Origin: Rhopilema esculentum
Lineage: Eukaryota
Assembly (NCBI RefSeq): GCF_013076305.1
Contig: NW_027019299.1
Span: 9,744,265 to 9,808,264 of the forward strand
Reading direction: 5' to 3'
Length of the DNA stretch: 64,000 nucleotides
Of the stretch, positions 2,120-18,337 are shown piece after piece (the stretch's first letter is position 1; every line of letters starts with the position of its first letter). Both the position numbers and the translations under genes were made by a program. The notes beneath the pieces are model-generated. The model worked only from the letters and a program-made list of their open reading frames with translations, did no database searches and had not been told where the DNA came from.

Positions 2120-5100
2120 ATGGCTACCACTACTGCGGTGACAGATTTCAAGGTTGAGGCAACCAAAGTAAAATGGGATCCAAAGTCAGTGGAGATCCGA
2201 ACAAGGAGTGTCGAAAAGACGCTAGAGCCTTTAGTTCATCAGGTAAGTGGCCTAGGCCATTTTCTTCGAGAACAAACTAGCGATGTGAAACCAGTTTCTT
2301 ACAATTCCTCAGTTAAAAATTAGGACGTAAATAAAGATTTCCACAATCTTTCTGCAATTGATTTATAACGTTATGGTAAGTCTTTCTCTTGCCAATCCCT
2401 TCTGATTTGTTGTCAAGTATGACTCATGCGCGTGTCCTTGAAAGATAATATTGTTGTTCTGATTCTTTGAAGGATCACTTTTACACTGAGACCCTTCCCA
2501 AAGCTTAAAGTTTGCTCTGTCGATTTTTGCGATTGGAAATTCATATTTTAATTACATCTTCATTATTTTTTCAAAGTAAAGGTATTTTATAGTTCATTAT
2601 TTGGAAGCCGATCGTAACGTTTTATTTCATTGCCCTGAGATTAAATTATCAACATTATTTTTAGACAAATATCACAAATGTTTATTTTTTCGCAATTTGT
2701 TCAGCATATTGAAAGTTTATCGAAAAAGAGCAATGCGCTTAAAACTTCATGTTTTCTCAATCAGAATGACTCATAGTAAAAGATATGTCACCACATCTTC
2801 AGAACTTTACTTGTTTTTGTTGGAAGATTTTATTTTCAGAACATTTAGCCGGAAAAATAAGAATTTTCTTATTTGCTGAGCGTGACCGTGACCGTGAATT
2901 TCGAAAAGCAATGAGTCCCTTTTCTAATAAGGCACTTCATATTTGCATCCAAAAACCAAAATCCTATTGCAAGCATTCCAAACTTTTCTCAGATATTTCT
3001 TTTGTAATTTCTGTCAATATAGTGGTTAATCAAAGGATTTTGTTATTAAATTATTCCATTGACAATTGTTTCTATGCCATATTTGTGTTCCAGTTGCAAG
3101 AGTAATAATGCTCAACCCAGAATCCATTTTTGCTAAATAAGAGGATGATATTCCATAGAAAGATATACAGGAACAAAGCAATATGACGACGAGAATCCAA
3201 TGTCACGAGATAAATTTTTCAAAATAAATTAAATTTAAAGAATATACTAATATTTCCCCCCGGCATACAGGGCTTCATCACTTCATAACAACACACATTG
3301 CAAGATTCACAGAATCCGGCGGACAGCCTATCCTGCAGTTCTTCCTTCTCACACATGATATTTCATAGGATGTCACTAAATTACAAGTTATGATACTTCT
3401 GCTCTTTGAAATATGCCAGTAATTCGCAGACCCAGTAACATCATTCAATGAGATTTTTTCTTCAATGTGTAATTCACTACCAATGAGAAATCAGTCTATC
3501 TTGAAAGAGGCCTATTATAGATTTGCACCTTCATGACCTTGACCCTATTTACCTATACTGCCTACAAATTTGGCAATTGGTTTTTTGCCAATTGCATCTT
3601 CAGTAAAGATGCAGCTTGCATCTTTCAGTTTTTATTGGTAATGGTTTATGGCTTTTAGGATGTAGTTGCATTTCTACAAAAATATGAAATCAGTAAGATG
3701 TTGACTAAAGGTTCAGTGGTTTTGACCAACTGAGATGAGATGAGCTTGTTCTGTGAAAGTGAGATGAGAACCATTGAATTTTTCCAGAGTTACTTCTATC
3801 AATGTTTCTCTTTCCTTATAAGTTTAATTGGTTTTTATAGTGCACATAATTTTGGCACCTTTGATTAATTTAATTCTAGAAACAAGATTTGCTGCTCTAT
3901 GAGGTCCCCTACACTTTGAGGTCCTTAGGCAATTTTCCGCTTTGCCCCATTTTAAAAACCCTGGTTTTGACTCAGTGTGGGTTCTGGGAACATCAGAGAA
4001 TAATATGGATCAATAAGCTTCAAAACCTTTACCTTGGCTCATTCTTACTCGTAGTGAATAAAAGAAGTTAGACTTGTACCTCGCCATCTACTATCTTGTG
4101 TCTTTTTTGTAGCATGAGTTTGAAAGCCATTCTGAGCATTTATTTACAAGGTGCTGGTCTGTGGTGTTTTATTGATGCATGAAATCCTAGCAAAACTAGT
4201 AACTAAGCTTTATGTTATCCTGCAACTGATAGGTTACATCACTGGTAAACCACCAAAGAAAGTCAAAAACAGGAAAATCAAAGAAAGCCACCCAGTTGGC
4301 CAAAGAGATTGATGAAGCCACTGAAAGGCTTGTTATCGTGGGTGAGAGCATTGCAAAAGACTTCCCTGAAATTAAAGAGCCAATGCTAGAAGCATGCAAA
4401 GAAGCAAGATCTGCTGGTAACTTTCATGATTTTTACTTTGCTTTGATTCTGATTTGCTTTGTTTCATGATTTTTACTTTGCTTTGCTATAATCATTGTTC
4501 TTGTCAATGTTTTTGTTTAAAATGATATTTTCAGTATATTTCCTATTAGAAAATACAATAACCTATATCTTTTACCCTCACATAATTTCCATCTTTCTAC
4601 AATTTATTTCTCAAAATCCAACAAAAGTTAATCCTGTCCATATATATACATCAAATTACATATGAGCGATCCTTTATATGATATCTATGTCTTTTATATT
4701 TATTCTTAACTTTATTCTTCATTGTATGTATATATAAACATTTTCCACAACAGATTGAAAGCAGGACTGTAGGAAATTACTTAAAAATTGATGTTGGCTC
4801 CCACTTCAGACTCTGCTTGATGTTTGTTTTAATTTTGTCATTGATTTTGTTACTGTTTATTTATTTGCAATCTAAAGGAGATACAATGAGGGCAGCCTCA
4901 AATGATTTTGCTGCTGATCCATGTTCATCTGGAAAAAGAAGTGTAATGATAAGAGCTGCCAGAGCACTTCTTGCAGCAGTCACAAGGTTGCTATGTGTTG
5001 CAGACATGGCTGATATTTACAGGCTTCTTGCCACTTTGAAAATGGTGAGATCATCTTTCAGGCATTTGTATAACTTTTCAAGTAACAACATAAATGTAAG

Positions 5101-8100
5101 AGCTTGATTGTGAACTTATGACCTGCCATTTTAAGATGTTTTTACAGTAAGTCACACTTTCAAAAGATGTTTGCATGTCCTTCTTTTGCAGTTTTTTACC
5201 TTTGGTTTGTTATTTGCCTTTTTTATAAGATATATATCGTTAAACTGAATCAGTTATTTAGCAAAATTAAGCCTTCTAGTTTAAGTAGACCTTCTAGTTC
5301 AGATAAAATTTTTCAAAATATTTCTGCTGAACCTTATAGTGAAGTATAATTTGAGGCATTTACATGGCCAGGTTGAAAAAAGATTGAAAGAGCTTGATGG
5401 TGCAGAAAATACAGATGAGTTGTTGAAAAGCTTCAAGAATTATGGAGATGATTTGATGAAACTTGCAAAATTGTCTGGAATTAGACAAGCTGTATGTATA
5501 TCATCTTAGCTAGTTTTCAGATCTATTTTCCTTTTGTTCGGTTTTTTGGGTTCTTTTTATATTGAAGTTTTTCATCCCCATAAAAAAGCAGAAGCTGAGT
5601 GTTGTACTGACTTAATGTGAAATACTTGATTAATTCTGAAAATCTATGGAAATTGTCAGAAGTCTCAATTATCAATTTTATGTTATTTGCTGTATAGAAC
5701 AGGATGTTTCTATGTTGCTACTTTGAGTATCACACCTAATGTTGCATCAAGTGTGAAACTAGGAGTAGCAACTTGAAACCGCCCTGTTCTATACACCAAA
5801 ATGCTTGTACAGCTCTGCCGACAGCTTTGAACACTTTTTGACAGATCAGTAAACAGTAATTTTTATTATTATTTATTTTATACCAGGGATGATCCTTTTG
5901 CTACTTAGTTCAAATTTATAATCATTTATAAATGCTCTATATGTATAAATAGTATATTAGCAATTATTATATACAGGATTTGAAAGATCCAAGAAAGAAA
6001 GATGAAATGGCTGCTGCCAGAGCAACTTTGAAGAAGTCAAGCCGAATGTTACTCACCACATCAAAGGTTTTGACATTATGAATTTTATGCTGTGTCTTAA
6101 ACTAAGAAAAATGAAAATTTTATTTTATCCTGCCAAGTTCACCTATTCCGATGAAGAAGGGCCTTTTTTCCTTTGAGAATCAGACAGTTAATTTCTAAGT
6201 TTTATCTAGAAAAGCTCTTTTTGGCCAAATGATGTGCAACTGAATTCAGAAATATTTTTCAGCCCTATCTTGGTAACATTTCAAGTGACAATTGCACATC
6301 TCAAGGAATTACTTAAAAACATAAGCAACACCCACAGCCAACCTGATTTGTCTTGCCTCAGCACTTACCTTAGTCTCACACATCTTTGCACCTTTCTTTG
6401 CAATACATCGCTATCAAGAAATCTACCACCATATTATTTATATGTACATTCCAACAGGCATTTGTTCGACATCCAGAGGTGGCATCGGCAAAACACAACC
6501 GTGATTTTGTCATGAAGCAGATCAGTGATGCTGTAAAGGCAATATCAGGAGTTGCTCAAGCTGTAGGTGAAAGTACACCATCACCTTTTGAACAAGCTGG
6601 TGCCTTGGCTAAAGCCCTTACAGACTTGCTGGTAAGTCTAGTCGAAAGAGTCCCTTGACTTAATTCATCGTATTGTACTTTTTTTATATGTAGGTAAATT
6701 TAAGCCTGAATCGCTGGAAAATTCGAATGAGAACTACTACTGGCTAATATTTGAGTATTTGTTGCTGTTGCGCTGAAAAGTTGATGAAAGTAACAAAAAA
6801 GGAACATATAGAGAATATGGGAAGACTTTTTCTTCAGTTGTGACATTGGCACCTAAGTTGGAAAATAATTCTGAAGATTGAGCATGTTTTCTTTTAGGTT
6901 TTTTGTAATGGTACATATGGAGTACTTAGATGTATTTATTTTCAGCTTTGGGTAATTAATTGGGGTTTATCACAAAGAAGCGTATGTTGGATTTTTGGGG
7001 TTTCATAAAATATTTACTAAAATAGATTTAAAGAGACCACTGAGCAATATAAAAATTGTTTTTGTATTACTGTGACATGGAAATTTACCGTTTGAAGCAT
7101 TGCGTCAGAAGAAAAAAATTGGCTACCTTTTCCGTCATAAAAGAAATTCACAAGTACAGAATCATCTTGTTAGAAATCGATTTGTGGGCCTTTGACCTAC
7201 TGATGGCAACATCGAGTACTGGCATATCAAATTTAGTTATGAGATTCCGATTGAAATCACTTTCAACGAAATAAATTAAACAATAACAATGTCTTTGCTA
7301 TAACCCAATCAGAGAGTTCTATTGTGAAGGGGGTGTCCATCAGGGCGTGTAAGCATTCCCAACCGTGCTTTTGTCTCTCTAGCCGCTGTCTTTAATTACT
7401 AGAAATACAGTTAAGCCACGACAAACCTGTTGCAGTGAACGTTTCTTGACGTTTCATAGCTACTATCTTAACAAGAGCTAAAACAAAAGGACGTTTTGAT
7501 GTGCAGGCGCTGCTATAAATGTCATTAAAAATATTTAAGTACTGTTTTGTAGCCTCCAATTTTCTTCCATTAGGCAATGATTAACAGAAAGCCGGCTGAT
7601 TTCAAAGAAAAGACAACACGCGTGGAGCTAGAGAAACAATTGGATGAACTTCTGGCTGCCGCAGCCCGATTGGCAGACTCTTCTTGCACACGTGACAATA
7701 CACGTGACAGGTTGATTGCTGAGTGCAACAATGTCAAACAAGCTCTACAGAATCTCATGGACGAGTATATGAAACATGTCAGTTCTTATCAAATTTTTCA
7801 TATTACTAATCTGTTGCCAATAGGATAAAAAGTTTTCAAGTAAAATTATAGGCAAACTTTTAAAATTCTAGAGAGGATTTTTTTATATTCATTGTATTAT
7901 CATTTTGGAAAAGGACATCTTATTCACAGGAACAACTAAGTATGCATAATGCAAGGCTTTCTTTTGCCTTACACGAATATTGTAAGTTCGAGGTAGGAAA
8001 AAAGAGAACAAAACAAGTACAAGAAGAAATAATGCAAGACTAGTCATAAATTCAATGAAATTTGTATTTTATGTAATGTAATGAAACTTGTTTTGATCGA

Positions 8101-11100
8101 AAATATTTCGATTCAAATTTTTTGTTGTTCTTAAACAGGCCAAAGGAAAGCCCAATGACGTACCAGGTGCAAAAAATCAGTTGGAAAAGAAGGCAAGGGT
8201 TCTTGGAAAACAGGTTAGAGGAAGATTTCCATTTTTGATCTCGTGTGAATCTTTTAGCGAAAACACCTTTCTTTATTTTAACATGAGTGCAGCGAATCAG
8301 TTATTTCAAAGTTTACTACAATGTAAATTTTAAGCTCTGCTAAATATTGTTTGCTTGCGCGAAGAAAACCTCTGTCAATTTACATTTATTTGTGTATTTG
8401 TTGATAATATCTGGACTCGTTCATTCAAGGACCATGTAGCATATTAGGAACTTAGGGGCTGAATCTTGATTTTGGGGGGCTAATCTTGCTAAAACCAAGG
8501 CAAAAGCGATTTTCAAAATTATTTGGGGGGGGGCTACTCAGCCCCTAATTTCCGTGATTCCTGTGCCTAACACCATATTGTCAACATCATGATTGTAATA
8601 TGGGACGTAAGCTGAATAGATTATGACATAACTAGCAAAAATGCTTTGTGAGGGTCTGCTATTTCTTCGTCTTTCCATGCCATTTGCAAGAGACAGCCTG
8701 TTGAAAAAATTGCCACTCGTACTGCTTATCTGCTGTTTGATATGTAGTGTGTATACATAAGGAAATATGTAGCAAGTCTCTGGTTTATTTAGATCATATA
8801 AGTTTTTGCGAAAAAAAGGAACCTTGCAAGTTACTTGTAGAATGTACAACTTCACCATATTTTCTTTAAAAAAGAATTGAATATGTTCTTAACATCTCTT
8901 TAACTAGTTTTCAATATTTCTTAGCTGCGGAAAGCGATTATAGATCATGTGTCAGACTCGTTCTTGGAAACCAATGTTCCATTGATGCTTTTGATCGAGG
9001 CTGCCGAAGCTGGAAATGAAAAAGAGGTTAATGAATGTGCTGTTGTCTTCACTGAACATGCTGCCAAGCTTGAGGAGGTAAATATTACATGTTTTTCTTG
9101 TTTAGTATCGCGTGTTTAGCAATCTGATTCTATTTCCAAAAGATGTAATGTATTTCTCGATGGTACAGCAGCTGATGATTGAATTTTTCTGATATTCTAT
9201 AACTTTTTCGCATTGTACAGGTGGCCAATCTTGCTTGCTCAATGTCGGATAATGTTGAAGGTGTAAAGATGGTGCGCATTGCTGCCAATCAGCTTCACTC
9301 ATTGTGTCCACAGGTAAGCCACGGATCTTAAGTTTTGGGTGCCAGGGACAAAGCCCCTCTCTTGCTTATGGCTATCAGTTGCTTAATTACTAGATAATAC
9401 TGTTTGTAAAGTAAGAGCGCAAGATGCTTTAGTAAGTAAGATCTACAAGGATTCCATAAATATACTAAAATGCGTGCGGTACAATATGATGAATTTAAAT
9501 AACGATCAATGTAAGTAAATTGTACCAGGAAAATTTTTTTTGAAATAATTAACGACATTTCGAGCAAACCCGTTATCAAGTGAGTTAGAAAAGCGACTAT
9601 AGAACTAAAAAATGTTACGGGCTATGCTCGAAACGTCGTTAATTATTTTAAAAAAATTTTTCCTGGTACAATTTACTTACATTGATCGTTTTTTAAGATC
9701 TACAAGGTTCTCTATGACAGTGTTTGGCACTTTTTAAGGGTTAAGAATGAATTTTCTTAAGCAATAAATAGATTTCCCTTTCACGTAATCCATTATGTTA
9801 TGTACCAAAGGTTTCGATCCTCCTCACAGTTTCTGCCTTTAATGATATTGATACACGGAATAAAAATGACGTCATGATTGTTTACAATTCACCAGGTAAT
9901 AAACGCCGCCCGCACGCTAGCAGCTAGGCCTAGAAGTAAAGTTGCTAAGGAAAACATGGATGTGTTCAGAGATGCTTGGATCAATCAAGTGAAAGTGCTT
10001 ACTGAAGCTGTTGATGACATTACAACAATAGACGATTTCCTCGCCGTCTCAGGTAATCTGAAGTTGCTTGGATTTTTCTTTAAAGCTTTTTGGACAGGCC
10101 GACGCACGGTCGTAGTGTCTCAGCCAAAAAAATCATTTAATAAGGAAATGTACGATTGAATCACGTTAAGTCGTACCCCGGATAAGTCGAAATTTAAATA
10201 AATCGGACAGACTTTCAGTTCCCATTAGATTTTCCTACCCTATTCTTGTCAAAAGTCGTACCCCGGATTAGTCAGACCTTTGCTAGGTCAGACCATTTCC
10301 TTAACCCCTTGAAAGTCTGACTTAACAAGATTCGACTGTATTTGTGACGTGAACAAACTGTGAGACAATAACAATTCTTACAATTTTCCTGTTCACAAAT
10401 TTTCAGCATGTTGTCTACACGCAGCTGTCGTCCTAATACCCAGTTTTTGTTATTTCTTCCATGAACTATCATTTTTTCAGAGGCTCACATCCTTGAGGAC
10501 GTGAATAAATGCATTGAGGCTTTGCAGCAAGGAGATCCAGAGACCCTCGACAGAACGGCAGGCGCCGTACGGGGACGCGTTGCTCGTGTTGACAACGTCG
10601 TTTCTGCGGAAATGGAGAACTATGAAGCTGGGCCGTACACGGAAACCGTCCAAAGAGCTGTTCACATAATGAGGGAAAGCAGTAAGTATTGCTAGAGAAC
10701 ATGGTACTTGCACGAAGTTTCTTACGTTCGAACAATTACATATGCTACAAAGTTTCCTGGAAGCCAGACTCATTGGTCATTCGCATCTTTTTTGTTGGAT
10801 TCCGTCACTCATGGTCGATCATAGACATTCGTTCGACATCGATAGTAGGTCTTTAATTTAAAGCGCGAATATACCATCTCAATATCACCATATCTTAAAT
10901 TTTGTTCACAAAGTTTGTTCCATAGCGTACGCAAAATAACAACAAATTAATCCTTTTAGTTATGCCGCAGTTTGCTGAATATGTTGACACTGCAGTTGAT
11001 GCACTTAACCAAGACCCAAATGCTGAATTTGATGAAAATGCTTTCATTGACGCATCAAGACTGGTAAAAGACTTTCTTGATATATATTTAATTCAGCACT

Positions 11101-14100
11101 TGTTTTGTGTGTGTTCCTTATTCATTAAATGAGGAAGTTTCAGTTTCCAAAAAGACTTGTAATTGACCCACAGTTTTCTTAAAGTCATTAGTCGAATATA
11201 TTAAACTGAACCGCTATACTAATGATGGAGCTTTTCCTTGTGGTATATATTTTCTAAGAATGATAGTATACAATAACATTCTATCTATATTATATGCAAG
11301 AGAAATATTTCCTTATATTGTTTGTAGCCTTCACAGTTGCTCTTTCAACACCCATTATCTTTAACCGCCCCCTCCCTCCTTACGACTCCCTTTTGGAGTG
11401 ATAAAACTCCATTAACGTCATCAGCTTTAAATAGAAAATTTAGCATATTCTCTTTTGGTTGCTGTAGTTAAACAGTATCTTTATTATGATTACGGTAACA
11501 TAATATCTTTCTCTATTCATTTCCATCCCAGGGCCCAAGCCGCGAACTTGAAAGTGGGGGGGGGGGCAAGGCTTATGAAAGTGGAGGCCAAGACTAGCAA
11601 AAGTGAAGACCAAGGCTTCTTTCACCTTTGTTTATAGCTTTGAAATTACCTGCTTTTTAAAAAGGCGGGGGGCCATGGCCACCCCGGCCTTCCTGTGGGT
11701 GGGCCCTACATCCATAGGAAGTTAAATCTCCAGCTATAATATTGAGTTTTGTGTCCAGTTGTCAAGTATTTGTTCTCTTTACTCTCTTTTCCCTCTAGAT
11801 ATACGAAGGCATTAGAGACATACGACGTGCTGTTATGATGAAAAAGGTAGCAGTTATGTTTCTTATCCACATAATCGCAATCATATACTGATGCTGTCAA
11901 ACGTTCTTCGATTGGTATCCTTCTAAGTCTTTGTTCAACACTTCTTAATTGGTGTGGTATTTAAACGGATACTGTCACCTTTGTCTATAGTTTACGGAGT
12001 CATGCATTATCAGGTTTGAAGTTTGATGAGGGAAACAGATAAATGCACGAGTCATTTGCTAGTCTTATTATCCGGATCTTGCAATTTTGAAATATCCAAT
12101 AGCAATTTTCTTTGCTTTACATTCATCTGTTTATAAGTTTGACTCTATAATTAATTTTGACACTATAGTTCCTCAGTTAGTGATTTTCCAAAGACCAGGC
12201 CCTCATGATTTCATCACAAACAGCATACATTAACTCTCTGTATGTTTCACTTCCTTTAGCTTTATCATGTAGCTTTTTTAAGCTCTTTTTTGCATTTCTT
12301 TCAACAAACAGAAACCAGGGGACGAAGACTTTGATGAAGAAGAAGAAATGGAGGAACAAGGAACACTTCTGACGTCACTTGCTGATGCTCAAACCAGACA
12401 GAGGGAAAAGGCTGCCTATGAGCAATTGAAAGCTGGAGGTAAGAGCCACTGGTGGCATTTTATGACGGGCGATGATAGTTTTTTTACAGTGGGATGACAC
12501 TTGTGCAGCGTACGCTAGAAAGAATTACTAAAATGGATAGCAACTATAACACAACTCAACATTAATCTAGGTCCAGTATGTTATGTCAAGTAATCTTTGT
12601 TGCGGTTTGGTCCAAAATTGATATTTTCAATAATTAGGATTTGGCTCAATCTATTAAAGTTGCCTAGGCCTTTAGGCTCTTAGATTTGCGGATTTACCAG
12701 CAACATGAATTTTGGAGCGAGACTGTGTGGAAACAAGAAGGAATTATAAATGTGTATCAACAATCTAGGCTTTAAGGAAAGCTTGAATAATCTTCACATT
12801 TTCGAATTCTTTTTCATATTTACGTATTTTTGCCATAGGTAAAGTGCAGTTTGAGATTCACAGCGAGGGTGGTGATGACCCTGGCGTAAAAGGAGAGGCC
12901 TCCATTATCGTCAACGGAATAGAATGTTGTCCAAAGCGCAAAGGCCACAACATTGTTGTCCTTGATGAAATTGGAAATGTTGTTGCAACAAGGTCTTTCA
13001 ATACAGTTGAGGCTGCGGAGGGAATGTCCATGGCTAAGTTCTTGGAAGACATTCCTGAGGAGCACATTGCTCTCATTGCAGTTCAGGATACTACAGGTTT
13101 GGGCTTGAGATAAACGCTACTGATTATTCAAGATTCATTTTAAGAGTCACTTTGAGAGACTCTTATTGAACATAAATTTGATACTGTATGTTTTGTGATG
13201 TAAATCGTACTTGATTTGTTATGCGTGCATTTATGTTGACTCGGCATCTGTCATTCGACCTTTGCTAATGCTTTATCTCATTGAAGTGAACAAACTGCAT
13301 AGTTCTTAAGTTGAGTTTATTAATTCATCTCTAGGGAAAGGAGTGGAAAAGGCGGAAGCAGCCTTGAAGAAACTTGGTGCTGTTGAACCAATGGATCCAG
13401 GTTTCAAAGGATCATGGGCCTTTGCTGGATTCAAAGGAGCTCACCATACTAAAAACTGGGTAACACAGGTTACCAGACCTCGTTACCACGGACCAGCAAT
13501 GGTTGCTGATATGATAAACACACCTGCGGCTGATCAAGGTACAAAGGATAACCATATGAATGATTTTTGAAACTGCAATTGAACTCGCTCTTTGTGTATT
13601 TTCAGTTCATCTGAATGTAGCAAATTAGGTGATTAATTGTCTCGTTGTTGGTGTGTTAGGCCGACGGAATTTTTTAGACGAGGTTTATTGTGATAACGAG
13701 ACTACGTTGGGATGTTGACTTCTTGTTAAAAGTCCCTAGATGACATGGCAAAATTGACACACACGCATAGGTCTGCAACAGAATAGTGCAAAATGTTTGA
13801 CAACCATGACTGTGTATGGATTGCTTAATAAAAGCTCGTACCTAGGATTAAAGAGATCATTTTTCTATCGAAAAGGACCCAGTGCGTGAATTTGTTTTTG
13901 TAACGATGATTAACTGATGTGTCTGAAATATGCTGAAATATACCTGCCTGTTAAATTTCCCTTTCGTATTGAATTTGTTTTGCTTCGTGATTTCACACGC
14001 TGAATGCAATATACCACTTTTTCGTTGTATTTAACACCCTTTCTCCAAAATATAGGCAAAATAAAAGTGGAGATTTCGTCAGAGGGCCTAGACGACCCCG

Positions 14101-17100
14101 GCTATGCCAGAATAGCGTCTATCAAAATAAACGGAATCGAACGAAGTCCCATGGTGCGTGGTATGAATGTGGTCATTCTAGACGCGGCTGGAAATTACCT
14201 CATGTCGAAGAACTTTGATACAGCCGATCCAACTCGCGGCAGATCAGAAGGACAAAAAATGGCGCAGTTCTTGGACGATTTGCCTAGTGAAAGAATGGTC
14301 TGTGTTTCATCGTTAGAAGCCACCGGTAAGTAGGCCAGTTATTAAATTTAGCATAAAACACTTAAGTAGCTGGTAGACTTACTCAATGAGCCACTGTTCC
14401 GCTACTGCCTTATTTCATTGAAGCTACAACAGATGACATTCTGTTATAGCGTTCGTGAATTGAGGCTGTAGCGAAACAGAGGCTCATGGAGTATGCTGGA
14501 ATATTTGACTAAAGAAATTCTAACAAAGACCTTGATTTCGATTTCATTCACAAACATTCACGATTTATGACGATGATAAGATTAATTTCAATTTTTCAAT
14601 GTTTTACTAGATTACGCTAGATATTTCATAAATGAAGCTGGCAGTGTCTATGTATTCTGCTTTAGCTTAATCAACTGCCTTTGTCTGAGTCTATTGATGA
14701 AACGTCCTGTTGCTTAACTCTTCGCAGGTGAGGGCATGGGTGAAGTCAGAGAGGCGCTCATACGAGTAGGTGCCGACGAAGACAGCGAATCTGGAACTAA
14801 AGGATCTTTCGCCCTTCTTGGTTACACCGGCCCTGAGAAGGTCGTTTGGTTAAAGCAAGTCCAAAAGCCTCGTGGGCAAGGCCCTGCCAAAATCATGACG
14901 TTCGTTATCACTCCAGAAGGTGCCGAGAGACTGAGTAAGTATCTTTTTATTGTGTCGGGAAGTTTATTTAAAAAAACAATTCAATGTCCTTACGAATTTT
15001 AGTAGAAAGTTGGATTGCCAGGTTGTTGTTATATTCTATGTTCAGATGACCATTTATTTCCACTTTTCCTACCAGCCTTCAAATTCCCTTATCCTTTTTC
15101 AGAATTAGGAGAAGAAGATGTTTTCCAAGATTACGAACCAGGTACATTCTCAGAGTATGATGATTTCCAAAAGCAAGGTGAAAAAGAATTCGACCAAAAT
15201 TATGGTACGATGAACAACAAAAGCGCACGCGTGAGTTTCCTTTTGAGGGTTTTTCTTCTCCTTAGGACTGACTATTTTGCCACGATGAAAACCTTGTCCC
15301 GTTTTCTCATTCCCATTTGAAGGATTTAGTCTACTGTGAAATCCGTACTGTGAAATTCCTTACAAACTGAACAGAAATCATTTGGTCGATAAAGGTTTTA
15401 ATCAAGAATTTTGAGATTTAGAAATGCACATGCATGAAAGGGCAATAGGCCTAAAAAGGTGCACTTTTCCAAATGTTCTAAAGATGAATTCTCTCAAAAC
15501 GTGGATGTACATATGCCATTGGTGACCCTGGCTTCGAATCTCCCCGACTTTAATGTTGTTTTAAATCATCTTTGGGTAGTCTTTTTTCGTTAATACTGAT
15601 GACGCTTGTATGCTCAAGCAAAATAATGTTCCGTGTCATCTTTTTTAAGTCCATTATGAGAGCACTACCAGCAGAAGAGAAGGCGAAAATCGCCAAGCTG
15701 AATGAAGGCCTTCGAATGGAGAAGAACAGGCTGGTAACTGAAGTGAGCAAATGGGATGACCAGAGTAATGAAATCATTGTTTTGGCAAAGAAAATGTGTA
15801 TGATAATGATGGACATGTCTGATTTCACAAGGTACGTTCATCAAAGGTAGCATCGATAATGACTTTATTTTGTTATAGAGTTTCTTAATTAGGACGTAAT
15901 TTATTCTCAGAGTGGTTTGATCGGTCATGTGTTTGTGTTTCGATTCCCACGCAACTTTTTATCCTTCGATAGACTTCGTTAACTTCCTTCATGCGTTTTA
16001 TTAATGTCACATTTGCAAATATAATTGAGAACTTTATTTATTTTATGCTATCATATATTCATTCATTTTTTTGTTAACCAGGGGAACAGGACCGCTGAAA
16101 ACAACCATGGATGTTATTAAGGGAGCAGAGGTACGTTTGAGTAAAGAATCTGATAATTATTTTTCTTAAAACATGCAGATTCTGATCCGGGAAAAAGTAT
16201 TACCTGATGTAAATAGACATTTCTGCATGCGATCATAGAAATAAATCGCTAGCTTTTTTGTTACAGAGAATCGCAAAGATGGGACAAGCATTAAACAAGC
16301 TGGCTGGAGACATTGCCGAAATGGTGAGATTTGCCGAATTGTTTTTTGAAGATTGTGAACACCAGATTTTTTAATCATTATTTCTATTTGCGTTTCTGTT
16401 TGGCTGTCTGTCATTTCTCTTTTTAAACCATTTTTTGTCCTCTTATTTGATTCAAATTCATAAATAGCACTTGCTGGCTAAATGCAAAATTTCCAGCACG
16501 AGCTTGCCCATCCATAGAGAGGTTGACGTATTTTGGTTAAGACGTAGCATTAGACCAGTTTGTAATAATAGGCAGATATCTTGTTGCCAGGCAAATGTCA
16601 AGAATCGATATTGTTTATGATTTAAAGATAAAAACTTACTTTAGTTTTGGTTGTATAATATTTTGTTTTATCTCCAATTTTAGTGCCCACACAGCTCCAC
16701 GAAAAACGATTTGTTGGCCTATCTTCAAAGGATCGCCCTTTACTCTCACCAGCTTACGATTACGTCACGAGTCAAGGCTGATGTACAGATGATAAGTGGA
16801 GAGCTTGTTGTCTCTGGGGTATGCCTGTTGTTTTTGGTCTTGAAATGAATGCATAAATCCATGTAAACTGAAGCACAGATCATACCAAGATTATCCTTTT
16901 TGCATCACAAATGCAATTTGTATGTTTTAAGATGCATTTTGTTGTTTTACACTTTTTTCAATGGACGTGTGTGTTTCTTGCTTATTGCACGAAACGGTTT
17001 TAGTTGCTGTATTGTCTTACTTCGATACTGAATTGAATTGATAAAATGCGTTTACATGTATCTGTTAACGCATCTCTTTGTGGGCCTGGTCTCTTTGTGA

Positions 17101-18337
17101 TAAACACAAGCTCGAGGTTTTTATAAACTGCATTGCTCATTATTTTCCCTAGATGAATGGTTGATTGTTTACTCGCTAATTTTGTTTCGGTTTCATTCTA
17201 CGTTCGGTTTTATGAATGCAGTTAATGTTGCTGATTTATAACTTAACATCACTATGCAATCGCACAAAATACAACTCGAGAATAATAGATATATGATCTA
17301 GTAAAATGCCTAGTTTTAAGTGTCACTTTTGACTTTTAAATCTCCTTTAGCTGGACAGTGCAACGTCTCTTATTCAAGCAGCAAAAAATCTTATGAATTC
17401 GGTCATTCTCACTGTCAAAACATCATATGTTGCCTCAACTAAATTCAGGAAGGCTGACGTACGTATCCTTTATATTCCTCTCTGTCCAAATTCTTTTCAT
17501 TAAATTTCAAATGGCTCGACCTTTCAGCGTGCCTTTTTCTTTGGAAGTATTTGCTGTAGCCCACTCCGCGACCTATAACCATAAATCATTTAACACGAAC
17601 GTTTTTTAATGCAAAAGAAAACATGATTGTCATGCTTTGATGCTTGAATTTTTTATTATTTCAGGGTGTGGTTTTCGTTAATTACCTTCTCCTAAGCTAA
17701 CTGAGCACCTGTTGCTGAGAATACTGTTCATAAATTAATGCCAGTCAATTTTCAAAACATTTTTGCTAGTTTTCGGCTCTGGTCAACTTCATTTATTGTT
17801 TTGATAACATTGTCTCTTTGTGTTTTTGCCTTTTTAAGCAATCAAAAATTAAAATTGAATTATTTAATTAAAATTACTTGAAAAATAAATTGAATTCCCG
17901 GAAATCGTCAAGATGCGCAGTATAGACTAGTTTAAAGAATTTGTAAGAATTAAAAGGCAATTGTAAAACAAATTTATTTGCAGCACGGTCAAATAATTCT
18001 TAAGTATGAAGCTTTTTAAGACTTATCAATTAATATAAGTTTGAGTGGACTTCGGATCATATGTAGTAGTTTTTCTTCACTTTCTGGAGGTGATTTCTAG
18101 GTTCCTTTAAAAATATGTTTAGCTAGATAACGAATTTTACTTCACTTTGGTTAAACAAATAAATTCGCTGAACGAGTCCCTGCTTTATTGTAGAAACCAA
18201 TTGTCAGCTGGAAGATGAAAGCACCAGAGAAGAAGCCGTTGATCAAAGTCGATATGTCTGACACTCGGATGACCGTCCGCGGTACGGATACCCAACAAGG
18301 CCCGTCACCAATCCAACAGCTGAGCGAGATCCAGTGA
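2120..18337 (+). CDS. CTNNA: alpha-catenin (CTNNA/vinculin-superfamily) gene, 26 coding exons, 1253 aa including an inserted tandem ILEI cassette
   Basis: Hand-spliced exons (GT-AG, phases consistent; total CDS 3762 nt = 1254 codons with stop). E1 2120-2242; E2 4233-4416; E3 4878-5044; E4 5372-5491; E5 5977-6066; E6 6458-6631; E7 7574-7777; E8 8139-8213; E9 8925-9077; E10 9221-9313; E11 9896-10052; E12 10481-10681; E13 10960-11063; E14 11799-11846; E15 12312-12438; E16 12839-13096; E17 13335-13538; E18 14056-14325; E19 14728-14934; E20 15103-15230; E21 15650-15831; E22 16082-16130; E23 16267-16323; E24 16684-16818; E25 17351-17458; E26 18194-18337 (stop TGA 18335-18337). Translation matches alpha-catenin throughout. 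Examples: MATTTAVTDFKVEATKVKWDPKSVEIRTRSVEKTLEPLVHQ (human MTAVHAGNINFKWDPKSLEIRTLAVERLLEPLVTQ); AASNDFAADPCSSGKRSVMIRAARALLAAVTRLLCVADMADIYRLL; LADSSCTRDNTRDRLIAECNNVKQALQNLMDEYM; IDHVSDSFLETNVPLMLLIEAAEAGNEKEV; SKWDDQSNEIIVLAKKMCMIMMDMSDFTR; DLLAYLQRIALYSHQL; C-terminal SWKMKAPEKKPL. Confidence 0.9.
8447..8548. repeat. small MITE-like element with ttaggggctga / tcagcccctaa terminal inverted repeats and internal G-runs
   Basis: ttaggggctgaatcttgattttggggggctaatcttgc ... tttgggggggggctactcagcccctaa. 11-bp perfect TIR. Lies in alpha-catenin intron 8. Confidence 0.4.
9501..9690. repeat. perfect long inverted repeat (hairpin/foldback MITE): 66-bp arms around a loop of about 58 bp, inside alpha-catenin intron 10
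   Basis: Left arm aacgatcaatgtaagtaaattgtaccaggaaaatttttttttgaaataattaacgacatttcgagca. Right arm tgctcgaaacgtcgttaattattttaaaaaaatttttcctggtacaatttacttacattgatcgtt is its near-exact reverse complement. Confidence 0.7.
12839..13096 (+). CDS. alpha-catenin exon 16: first half of ILEI/FAM3-like (GG) domain copy 1; symmetric phase 1-1 exon (258 nt)
   Basis: Translation (G)KVQFEIHSEGGDDPGVKGEASIIVNGIECCPKRKGHNIVVLDEIGNVVATRSFNTVEAAEGMSMAKFLEDIPEEHIALIAVQDTT(G). Compare FAM3C [28 protein letters not shown]...[54 protein letters not shown]. Acceptor AG at 12837-12838, donor GT at 13097-13098. In frame with upstream alpha-catenin exon 15. Confidence 0.8.
13335..13538 (+). CDS. alpha-catenin exon 17: second half of ILEI-like domain copy 1; symmetric phase 1-1 exon (204 nt)
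   Basis: Translation (G)KGVEKAEAALKKLGAVEPMDPGFKGSWAFAGFKGAHHTKNWVTQVTRPRYHGPAMVADMINTPAADQ(G). The motif GFKGSWAFAGFKG parallels FAM3 GFRDNWVFCGGKG and GWRDTWAFVGRKG. Acceptor AG 13333-13334, donor GT 13539-13540. Confidence 0.8.
14056..14325 (+). CDS. alpha-catenin exon 18: first half of ILEI-like domain copy 2; symmetric phase 1-1 exon (270 nt)
   Basis: Translation (G)KIKVEISSEGLDDPGYARIASIKINGIERSPMVRGMNVVILDAAGNYLMSKNFDTADPTRGRSEGQKMAQFLDDLPSERMVCVSSLEAT(G). RGMNVVILDAAGNYL..KNFDT..FLDDLP aligns to FAM3C [30 protein letters not shown]. Acceptor AG 14054-14055, donor GT 14326-14327. Confidence 0.8.
14728..14934 (+). CDS. alpha-catenin exon 19: second half of ILEI-like domain copy 2; symmetric phase 1-1 exon (207 nt)
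   Basis: Translation (G)EGMGEVREALIRVGADEDSESGTKGSFALLGYTGPEKVVWLKQVQKPRGQGPAKIMTFVITPEGAERL. Paralogous to exon 17 (K/TKGSFALLGYTG versus FKGSWAFAGFKG). Acceptor AG 14726-14727, donor GT 14935-14936. Confidence 0.8.

What the first reader, a model, noticed from the sequence alone, without database searches (positions are those of the whole stretch)
12312..15230. The ILEI cassette consists solely of symmetric phase-1 exons; skipping all four preserves the alpha-catenin frame, suggesting exon shuffling and possible cassette splicing
Exon 15 ends in phase 1 (leftover G). Exons 16 (258 nt), 17 (204 nt), 18 (270 nt) and 19 (207 nt) are all multiples of 3 and all phase 1-1. Exon 20 starts in phase 1. 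Any subset can therefore be removed without frameshift, and joining E15 to E20 creates a GAA (Glu) codon. Each ILEI domain is split by an intron at the same relative position in both copies (after ...TTG / ...ATG and before KG / EG), so a two-exon ILEI unit was duplicated in tandem. Phase 1-1 symmetric exons are the classic signature of domain acquisition by exon shuffling. The layout also permits isoforms with 0, 1 or 2 ILEI domains, analogous to the alternatively spliced linker insert of vertebrate alphaN-catenin.
Basis: seen in the sequence. Interest (0 to 1): 0.6.

Follow-up and report, generated by a model that had tools for sequence, protein, structure and literature searches.

The report
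ILEI exon cassette in jellyfish alpha-catenin
Four same-phase exons encoding two FAM3/ILEI-type domains sit in an old intron of the hinge of the jellyfish alpha-catenin gene; this is a clean example of domain gain by exon shuffling that all cnidarians share, but nothing found here shows the exons are ever skipped.

Summary
The arithmetic is right. Exons 16-19 are 258, 204, 270 and 207 nt. All are GT-AG and all are phase 1-1. E15 ends and E20 starts in phase 1, and an E15-E20 join gives GAA.

My 26-exon model translates exactly to RefSeq XP_065071194.1, "catenin alpha-2-like", of Rhopilema esculentum.

The cassette encodes two ILEI/FAM3-fold domains. An insert with two ILEI-like regions was already described in Nematostella alpha-catenin (Clarke 2016) and called unique to that species. 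It is not: Hydractinia, Clytia, Actinia, Stylophora and Dendronephthya proteins have it too.

The exon-shuffling reading is supported on the recipient side. Alpha-catenins without ILEI in Lottia and Ptychodera carry a phase-1 intron in the hinge, between a 0->1 exon and an exon that starts in phase 1. Both ILEI copies have their intron in the same invariant Gly codon, so a two-exon unit was duplicated. The one non-catenin ILEI gene I could inspect does not share that intron.

Cassette splicing is not supported:
- Predicted skipped products are absent from the protein collection.
- Nonsynonymous divergence matches the core domains.
- An octocoral and a hydrozoan-like relative have E19 fused to E20, so whole-cassette skipping would frameshift there.

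The parts
2120..18337 (+). Alpha-catenin gene, 26 coding exons, 1253 aa, identical to XP_065071194.1 of Rhopilema esculentum
   Evidence: Splice model. Exact match.
11799..11846 (+). E14 (48 nt, 0-0). Encodes IYEGIRDIRRAVMMKK, the end of the M region.
   Evidence: The equivalent exon end is phase 0 in Lottia and Ptychodera.
12312..12438 (+). E15 (127 nt, 0->1). An acidic hinge stretch followed by a conserved helix, ...AQTRQREKAAYEQLKAG.
   Evidence: The helix is conserved in 8 cnidarians and is predicted as helix 19-41.
12439..12838 (+). Intron 15, phase 1, 400 nt. The upstream part of the ancestral hinge intron.
   Evidence: No conserved intronic blocks against the relative's locus L011.
12839..13096 (+). 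E16 (258 nt, 1-1). First half of ILEI-1.
   Evidence: The same boundaries appear as ORF fragments from many taxa.
13097..13334 (+). Intron 16, phase 1, 238 nt. Lies inside ILEI-1 at invariant Gly129 of the hinge alignment A1.
13335..13538 (+). E17 (204 nt, 1-1). Second half of ILEI-1.
13539..14055 (+). Intron 17, phase 1, 517 nt. Junction between the two tandem units, at invariant Gly197.
14056..14325 (+). E18 (270 nt, 1-1). First half of ILEI-2.
14326..14727 (+). Intron 18, phase 1, 402 nt. Lies inside ILEI-2 at invariant Gly287. Copy of intron 16.
14728..14934 (+). E19 (207 nt, 1-1). Second half of ILEI-2.
14935..15102 (+). Intron 19, phase 1, 168 nt. The downstream part of the ancestral hinge intron. 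Absent in octocoral-like and hydrozoan-like relatives.
   Evidence: Present at the same position in the hexacoral-like L015. Absent in L016, L013 and L014.
15103..15230 (+). E20 (128 nt, 1->0). Fast-evolving acidic linker ending in ...KSAR.
   Evidence: Only 50% amino-acid identity to the close relative, with pN 0.26.
15650..15831 (+). E21 (182 nt, 0->2). Start of the actin-binding region, SIMRALPAEEKAK...

Best explanation
The window is Rhopilema esculentum genomic DNA carrying its alpha-catenin gene. Exons 16-19 encode two ILEI/FAM3-fold globular domains, placed in the hinge between the M region and the actin-binding domain.

**Origin (inferred)**
- In the cnidarian stem lineage, an ILEI-coding module landed in a phase-1 intron that already split the alpha-catenin hinge.
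- A two-exon unit, with an internal phase-1 intron, was then duplicated in tandem.
- This produced four 1-1 exons between E15 (0->1) and E20 (1->0).

**Present state (inferred from conservation and from the absence of skipped products)**
- The four exons are included constitutively and form part of the normal protein.

**Function (by homology to the Nematostella protein tested by Clarke et al. 2016; not tested here)**
- The roughly 35-kDa structured insert keeps the N/M region from inhibiting the actin-binding domain, so F-actin binding is constitutive.
For: **Structure and identity**
- Exon lengths, phases and splice sites.
- The spliced product is identical to XP_065071194.1.

**ILEI identity**
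- Pfam PF15711, E = 3e-31, two stretches.
- PDB sequence hits to FAM3B, POMGnT1, FAM3C and FAM3A.
- AlphaFold model with pLDDT 80 and pTM 0.71; fold matches with target-normalised TM 0.66-0.79 to FAM3B, FAM3C and the POMGnT1 stem.

**Tandem duplication**
- The two copies are about 40% identical and have the intron in the same column and phase.

**Antiquity**
- PF15711+PF01044 alpha-catenins of 1112-1280 aa occur in Hydractinia, Clytia, Actinia, Stylophora and Dendronephthya. Every bilaterian hit is about 900 aa with no ILEI domain.
- The same four exon boundaries, all phase 1, occur in a hexacoral-like locus (L015) and an octocoral-like locus (L016), and appear as ORF fragments from many taxa.
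- The junction glycines are invariant in 8 cnidarians.

**Recipient intron**
- Lottia L019 and Ptychodera L020 have a hinge exon 0->1 (...T|gtaagt), then an exon starting ag|CA AGT in phase 1.

**Constitutive use**
- pN is 0.057 in the cassette, against 0.067 in the N+M region and 0.033 in the ABD.
- Full-length mRNA contigs of a relative are listed in 48 blocks of the collection, and 23 contigs were read.
- Skip products are absent.

**Function**
- Clarke et al. 2016 (PMC4948710).
Against: - The donor side is open. The one non-catenin ILEI gene seen in genomic DNA (L018, organism unknown) has its intron before KRPGHN and none at the QDxxG position. P0065 has a similar ORF, but its DNA was not read.
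- The internal intron could therefore have been gained after the insertion.
- The cnidarian-specific conserved sequence starts upstream of intron 15, in the helix AEAQARQREKAAYEQLKAG within E15. The novelty is therefore not bounded exactly by the introns.
- The hinge is too divergent to prove residue-level homology of the cnidarian and bilaterian intron positions.
- No read-level RNA data for Rhopilema were examined, so rare skipping cannot be excluded.
- Function rests on one in-vitro study of another species.
Confidence: 0.7

Rival explanations
1. The four exons form a regulated cassette. Isoforms with 0, 1 or 2 ILEI domains are made, switching alpha-catenin between constitutive and autoinhibited actin binding.
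For: - Every subset of E16-E19 is frame-preserving.
- Deleting the insert in Nematostella lowers F-actin affinity, so a skipped form would behave differently.
- The Hydractinia protein is labelled isoform X2 and is not the longest product of its gene.
- Two unnamed ILEI-less alpha-catenins with a bilaterian-type hinge differ by 5 aa at what looks like the site of the same hinge intron (P0221 against P0225).
Against: - The predicted skip products are not in the 15-billion-sequence collection. All three were tested for the close relative, and the full skip was tested for Rhopilema. The full-length forms are present.
- No cnidarian-type short form appears among the top 120 representatives.
- The RefSeq name carries no isoform label.
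- Nonsynonymous divergence in the cassette equals that of the core domains.
- E19 and E20 are one exon (323 nt, 1->0) in the octocoral-like L016, and they are also fused in L013 and L014. Full skipping would frameshift there.
- No conserved intronic blocks flank E15/E16.
- Sixteen of the 24 internal exons are symmetric anyway.
Confidence: 0.1
2. The ILEI sequence entered the hinge as continuous coding DNA, for example by retroposition or illegitimate recombination into an exon. The phase-1 introns were gained later at AG|G sites in Gly codons.
For: - All four ILEI-associated junctions sit in invariant Gly codons.
- The non-catenin ILEI gene L018 lacks the internal intron.
- Intron 19 is absent in several lineages.
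- Conserved novel sequence extends into E15.
Against: - A phase-1 intron with matching flanking exon phases exists in ILEI-less Lottia and Ptychodera genes.
- Intron 19 is at the same residue and phase in a scyphozoan and in a hexacoral-like locus, which favours loss over parallel gain.
- Identical intron position in both copies requires the intron to predate the duplication.
Confidence: 0.15
3. The ILEI exons belong to a separate nested gene, or are an assembly or annotation artefact, and are not part of alpha-catenin mRNA.
For: None found.
Against: - Uninterrupted mRNA contigs of a relative with 88% identity encode N/M, then ILEI x2, then ABD in one 1257-aa ORF.
- The same architecture is found in six named cnidarian species.
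- The Nematostella cDNA was cloned and the protein purified.
Confidence: 0.01

Closest known systems
Nematostella vectensis alpha-catenin hinge insert (Clarke, Miller, Lowe, Weis, Nelson 2016, Mol Biol Evol 33:2016; PMC4948710)
   Same: - A roughly 360-380-aa structured insert lies between the M region and the actin-binding domain.
- It has two regions similar to Pfam ILEI (PF15711).
- Residue numbering is almost the same: deletion 638-1021 there, against E15-E20 = residues 632-1029 here.
   Different: - That paper treats the insert as unique to N. vectensis and says other cnidarian orthologues lack it. One search shows it in hydrozoans, an octocoral, hexacorals and scyphozoans.
- A search of its main text for 'splice' and 'isoform' found nothing. 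Exon structure, intron phase and origin are therefore new here.
- Function was tested there, not here.
FAM3 / ILEI / PANDER family and the POMGnT1 stem domain (Pfam PF15711; PDB 2YOP, 5LC2, 7ECQ, 5GGJ)
   Same: Same fold and same sequence family.
   Different: - As far as I know (my own knowledge), those proteins are secreted or luminal.
- Here the domain is internal to a cytoplasmic junction protein, without a signal peptide, and is present as a tandem pair.
Classical exon shuffling of phase 1-1 modules (Patthy's intron-phase rules; established knowledge)
   Same: - A symmetric 1-1 exon set.
- Domain boundaries lie at introns.
- A same-phase recipient intron exists in homologues without the module.
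- Tandem duplication of the unit.
   Different: - The recipient is an intracellular cytoskeletal protein rather than an extracellular mosaic protein.
- The event dates to the cnidarian stem.
- The donor gene has not been identified.
Vertebrate alphaN-catenin 48-aa alternative insert
   Same: An in-frame optional segment in an alpha-catenin.
   Different: - As I recall it, that insert lies near the C-terminal actin-binding region, not in the M-ABD hinge.
- It is short and unstructured.
- It has documented isoforms, whereas none were found here.

Membership tests
Alpha-catenin (vinculin family, PF01044) | N-terminal, M and C-terminal actin-binding helical regions homologous to alpha-catenins | tested here: met
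   - The 1253-aa product is XP_065071194.1, 'catenin alpha-2-like'.
- It is 54-61% identical to bilaterian alpha-catenins over about half its length.
- The 88%-identical orthologue carries Vinculin-ILEI-Vinculin Pfam hits.
ILEI domain (PF15711) | A significant match to the Pfam model | tested here: met
   E = 3.3e-31, 108 bits against a cut-off of 27, in two stretches.
ILEI domain (PF15711) | The FAM3/POMGnT1-stem fold | tested here: met
   - AlphaFold model with pLDDT 80.
- Foldseek E = 1e-8, with target-normalised TM 0.66-0.79 to 5GGJ, 2YOQ and 5LC2.
FAM3 cytokine-like proteins | A small secreted protein with an N-terminal signal peptide | tested here: not met
   The domains are internal (residues 674-987) in a 1253-aa protein that starts MATTTAVTDFKVEATK..., with no hydrophobic leader. 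It has the domain but is not a FAM3 family protein.
FAM3 cytokine-like proteins | Conserved disulfide cysteines | not tested
   Only one Cys column (C73) is invariant in the 8-species alignment. It was not mapped onto the FAM3 disulfides.
Exon-shuffled module | All exons of the module are symmetric and share the phase of the flanking introns | tested here: met
   258, 204, 270 and 207 nt, all 1-1, with phase-1 flanks.
Exon-shuffled module | Module boundaries coincide with introns | tested here: met
   - ILEI-1 starts at the E15|E16 junction (Gly43 of A1).
- ILEI-2 starts at E17|E18 (Gly197).
- ILEI-2 ends about 9 residues before intron 19.
Exon-shuffled module | Homologues without the module have an intron of the same phase at the insertion site | tested here: met
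   - Lottia L019: exon 9439-9499 is 0->1, and the next exon starts in phase 1.
- Ptychodera L020: hinge exon 1 is 0->1 and hinge exon 2 is 1->0.
- Residue-level equivalence cannot be shown in so divergent a hinge.
Exon-shuffled module | A donor gene carries the module with the same intron layout | tested here: not met
   - L018, a non-catenin ILEI gene from an unknown organism, has its intron before KRPGHN and none at QDxxG.
- The closest non-catenin protein, the Oscarella 2xILEI protein P0012, is known only from a transcriptome.
- This is a single example, so the result is weak.
Alternatively spliced cassette exons | Skipping preserves the reading frame | tested here: met
   The same holds for 16 of the 24 internal exons.
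Alternatively spliced cassette exons | Transcripts or proteins of the skipped form exist | tested here: not met
   - The four predicted skip products are not in the collection, whereas the full-length forms are.
- None appear among the top 120 homologue clusters.
- Read-level RNA-seq could not be examined.
Alternatively spliced cassette exons | Skippability and flanking intron sequence are conserved across species | tested here: not met
   - E19 and E20 are fused in L016, L013 and L014.
- There is no conserved intronic block in introns 14-15 against L011.

The most novel reading that the evidence does not exclude
The phase-1 cassette is used as a splicing switch in some tissues or life stages (polyp, strobila, medusa). 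Dropping one or both ILEI domains would convert a constitutively actin-binding alpha-catenin into an autoinhibited, bilaterian-like form. Cnidarians would then tune junction mechanics by exon choice at the same hinge intron where two unnamed bilaterian-type sequences (P0221, P0225) appear to differ by a small insert.
Probability: 0.08. Interest if true: 0.6.

Novelty: new member of a known kind. Interest (0 to 1): 0.38.

Why it matters
- **It corrects the literature.** The ILEI insert is not a Nematostella oddity. It looks like a cnidarian-wide feature of alpha-catenin, probably over 500 million years old (the age is my own estimate). If so, the constitutive actin binding seen in Nematostella may be general for cnidarian junctions.
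- **It is an unusually complete exon-shuffling case.** The recipient intron is still visible in bilaterians, the module is symmetric, and the tandem duplication left matching introns. The domain type is otherwise extracellular or luminal, yet it sits in a cytoplasmic protein.
- **It does not establish a new mechanism.** The splicing idea remains untested at read level.

Tried and rejected
- **First homologue search with the 398-aa hinge and cassette.** It gave one hit only. Cluster representatives are often short exon ORFs, so it said little. Cluster look-ups and a full-length query worked better.
- **The look-up of encoding contigs.** It had no record for P0001 or for Hydractinia isoform X2. 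So I obtained no hydrozoan RefSeq locus and could not see what distinguishes the Hydractinia isoforms.
- **L011 and L012.** These loci reach only E16 and E15 respectively, so the close relative's cassette introns could not be compared.
- **dN/dS.** Synonymous sites are saturated (pS 0.76-0.88), so only pN is reported.
- **Literature searches.** Searches for FAM3 intron positions and for the alphaN-catenin insert position returned nothing usable. The supplement of Clarke 2016 is not held, so no residue-level comparison with the Nematostella sequence was possible.
- **My first guess that the window was an edwardsiid anemone.** One search showed it is Rhopilema.
- **Long multi-ILEI hits.** These are 5xILEI proteins without a vinculin domain, one with a ChW domain, so probably bacterial. 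I rejected them as relevant donors.
- **Second ILEI copy in the window.** None exists outside the gene.

Full report
**Observation**

I re-derived every boundary from the sequence and then from a splice model of the whole gene, guided by a full-length orthologue.

| Exon | Coordinates | Length | Phase |
|---|---|---|---|
| E15 | 12312-12438 | 127 nt | 0->1 |
| E16 | 12839-13096 | 258 nt | 1-1 |
| E17 | 13335-13538 | 204 nt | 1-1 |
| E18 | 14056-14325 | 270 nt | 1-1 |
| E19 | 14728-14934 | 207 nt | 1-1 |
| E20 | 15103-15230 | 128 nt | 1->0 |

All sites are AG/GT. Joining E15 to E20 gives G|AA = Glu and keeps the frame.

**Identity**

The gene runs from ATG 2120 to the stop at 18337, with 26 coding exons. 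Its 1253-aa product is identical to RefSeq XP_065071194.1, 'catenin alpha-2-like [Rhopilema esculentum]'. So the window is scyphozoan jellyfish DNA, and an independent annotation confirms the model.

A 1257-aa orthologue, P0002 (88% identical, species not named), is encoded on uninterrupted mRNA contigs from JGI metatranscriptomes and Logan assemblies. It aligns across every exon junction without gaps.

**What the cassette encodes**

- Pfam finds ILEI (PF15711) twice, E = 3e-31.
- The PDB sequence search finds FAM3B, POMGnT1, FAM3C and FAM3A.
- An AlphaFold model built from an 8-species alignment (pLDDT 80, pTM 0.71) shows a helix from the 3' half of E15, two compact alpha/beta domains (residues 44-190 and 198-347 of the 398-aa segment) and disordered tails.
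- Foldseek matches each domain to the POMGnT1 stem, FAM3B and FAM3C, with target-normalised TM 0.66-0.79.
- The two copies are about 40% identical, and their internal introns lie in the same column and phase.

**How special is the phase pattern?**

The other 20 introns of the gene are 16 phase 0, 3 phase 1 and 1 phase 2. Five consecutive phase-1 introns therefore stand out.

Most of the pattern, however, follows from history. An in-frame insert in a phase-1 intron must be 1-1 overall. A tandem duplication copies the internal intron and creates the middle one. That leaves the phase of the internal intron as the only free coincidence.

Frame-preserving skippability is also unremarkable here. Sixteen of the 24 internal exons are symmetric.

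**Distribution**

Clarke et al. 2016 (PMC4948710) described a 362-aa insert with two ILEI-like regions in the hinge of Nematostella alpha-catenin. They showed it is a protease-resistant domain and that deleting residues 638-1021 lowers F-actin affinity. They also stated that other cnidarian orthologues lack it.

A full-length search shows otherwise:
- PF15711+PF01044 proteins of 1112-1280 aa occur in Hydractinia, Clytia, Actinia, Stylophora and Dendronephthya. The Actinostola model has the same domains but is 1566 aa and looks fused to a neighbouring gene.
- Every bilaterian hit is about 900 aa and has no ILEI domain.

The insert therefore predates the split between anthozoans and medusozoans.

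**Intron conservation**

An exhaustive HMMER search with the cassette returned many short ORF fragments. Their matches stop at query positions 1-88, 86-157, 155-246 and 248-313, which are the four exons. Identities range from 50% to 96%.

Two genomic loci of distant relatives show the same four exons with phase-1 boundaries in the same Gly codons:
- L015 is hexacoral-like.
- L016 is octocoral-like and matches the Dendronephthya protein.

Those glycines are invariant in eight cnidarians.

There is one exception. Intron 19 is present at the same residue and phase in Rhopilema and L015. It is missing in L016, where E19+E20 is a single 323-nt exon with phases 1->0. It is also missing in two short contigs, L013 and L014.

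**Recipient intron**

I fetched two alpha-catenin genes that lack ILEI.

- *Lottia gigantea* (L019): the exon ending ...AVLMNR is phase 0. A 61-nt hinge exon follows (9439-9499), ending ...GGA TAT T|gtaagt in phase 1. The next exon starts ag|CA AGT.
- *Ptychodera flava* (L020): hinge exon 1 ends ...AGT AAA T|gtaagt (0->1). Hinge exon 2 starts ag|CA AGT TAC and ends ...SDR|gtaagt (1->0). The next exon starts FLMRQLP.

The Ptychodera layout is exactly the E15/E20/E21 layout of Rhopilema with the cassette removed. A phase-1 hinge intron is thus shared by a protostome, a deuterostome and cnidarians. This is what insertion into a pre-existing intron predicts.

**Donor side**

The closest non-catenin relative is a secreted 2xILEI protein from the sponge Oscarella (P0012, 38% identical), known only from a transcriptome.

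The one non-catenin ILEI gene I could read in genomic DNA (L018, organism unknown) has an intron before KRPGHN and none at QDxxG. P0065 has a similar ORF, but I did not read its DNA. The donor layout remains unknown, and the internal intron may have arisen after the insertion but before the duplication.

**Cassette splicing**

I built the predicted products and looked them up by exact sequence among about 15 billion proteins. These were delta-all, delta-ILEI-1 and delta-ILEI-2 for P0002, and delta-all for Rhopilema. None is present, while both full-length proteins are. P0002 is listed in 48 blocks of the collection, and 23 contigs were read that carry it.

Further points against regulated skipping:
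- No short cnidarian form is among the top 120 clusters. All hits of about 900 aa have bilaterian-type hinges.
- Nonsynonymous divergence between Rhopilema and P0002 is 0.057 in the cassette, 0.067 in N+M and 0.033 in the ABD, against 0.26 in the E20 linker.
- Only exons align between introns 14-15 and the relative's locus.
- Where E19 and E20 are fused, skipping the whole cassette would shift the frame.

These results argue for constitutive inclusion. They cannot exclude rare or stage-specific skipping, because no read-level data were available.

**Mechanism**

- Shown here: the anatomy, the fold, the conservation and the recipient intron.
- Inferred: insertion followed by tandem duplication in the cnidarian stem lineage.
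- Borrowed from Clarke 2016: the structured insert relieves autoinhibition, so F-actin binding is constitutive.

**Verdict**

The exon-shuffling and duplication reading is supported and strengthened. The splicing suggestion is unsupported. The insert itself was already known from Nematostella. The new points are the exon-phase anatomy, the conserved recipient intron and the cnidarian-wide distribution.

Noticed in passing
Proteins P0174, P0178, P0179, P0180, P0182, P0183; window 12839-14934: Clarke et al. 2016 state that the ILEI-like insert is unique to Nematostella alpha-catenin. It is present in hydrozoan, octocoral, hexacoral and scyphozoan alpha-catenins, and absent from all bilaterian hits.
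   Followed up: yes
L016:11162-11484; L013:349-858; L014:93-437: The intron equivalent to window intron 19 (14935-15102) is missing in an octocoral-like locus and in two other relatives, so E19 and E20 form a single 1->0 exon. It is present at the same residue and phase in the hexacoral-like L015, which suggests independent losses.
   Followed up: partly
window 12360-12438 (3' half of E15): The stretch ...AEAQARQREKAAYEQLKAG just upstream of ILEI-1 is highly conserved in all 8 cnidarians aligned and is predicted helical. Bilaterian hinges have no counterpart. The cnidarian-specific conserved sequence therefore begins before intron 15.
   Followed up: partly
L015:10043-10330: In hexacoral-type genes the first ILEI exon is 9 nt longer. 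It encodes ...G(R/K)EQ-G before the donor gtgagt and is still phase 1. The extra residues appear in the Stylophora and Actinia proteins.
   Followed up: partly
P0221 against P0225; L019:9439-9650; P0286: ILEI-less alpha-catenins vary around the hinge intron. Two unnamed transcript-derived proteins differ by 5 aa (TRSKSS[RSKAS]YMTG). Separately, the Lottia JGI model P0286 omits the 61-nt hinge exon by using an internal acceptor. This hints at small alternative inserts at the same site.
   Followed up: no
P0012 (Oscarella pearsei); P0014-P0025, P0059, P0086: The closest non-catenin relative of the cassette is a secreted tandem 2xILEI protein from a homoscleromorph sponge. Several proteins of 760-1226 aa carry five tandem ILEI domains; one has a ChW domain, so is probably bacterial.
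   Followed up: partly
L018:8786-8887 and 10068-10426: A non-catenin ILEI gene of an unidentified eukaryote lies next to exons encoding an F5/8 type C (discoidin) domain. It splits the ILEI domain at a different place (before KRPGHN) from the catenin cassette.
   Followed up: partly
P0183 (Actinostola sp., 1566 aa): This alpha-catenin model carries about 300 extra N-terminal residues with CBS-domain hits. It is probably a fusion of two neighbouring gene models.
   Followed up: no
window 18400-64000: Only five ORFs of 110 aa or more lie downstream of the alpha-catenin gene. The rest of the window was not analysed for genes.
   Followed up: no
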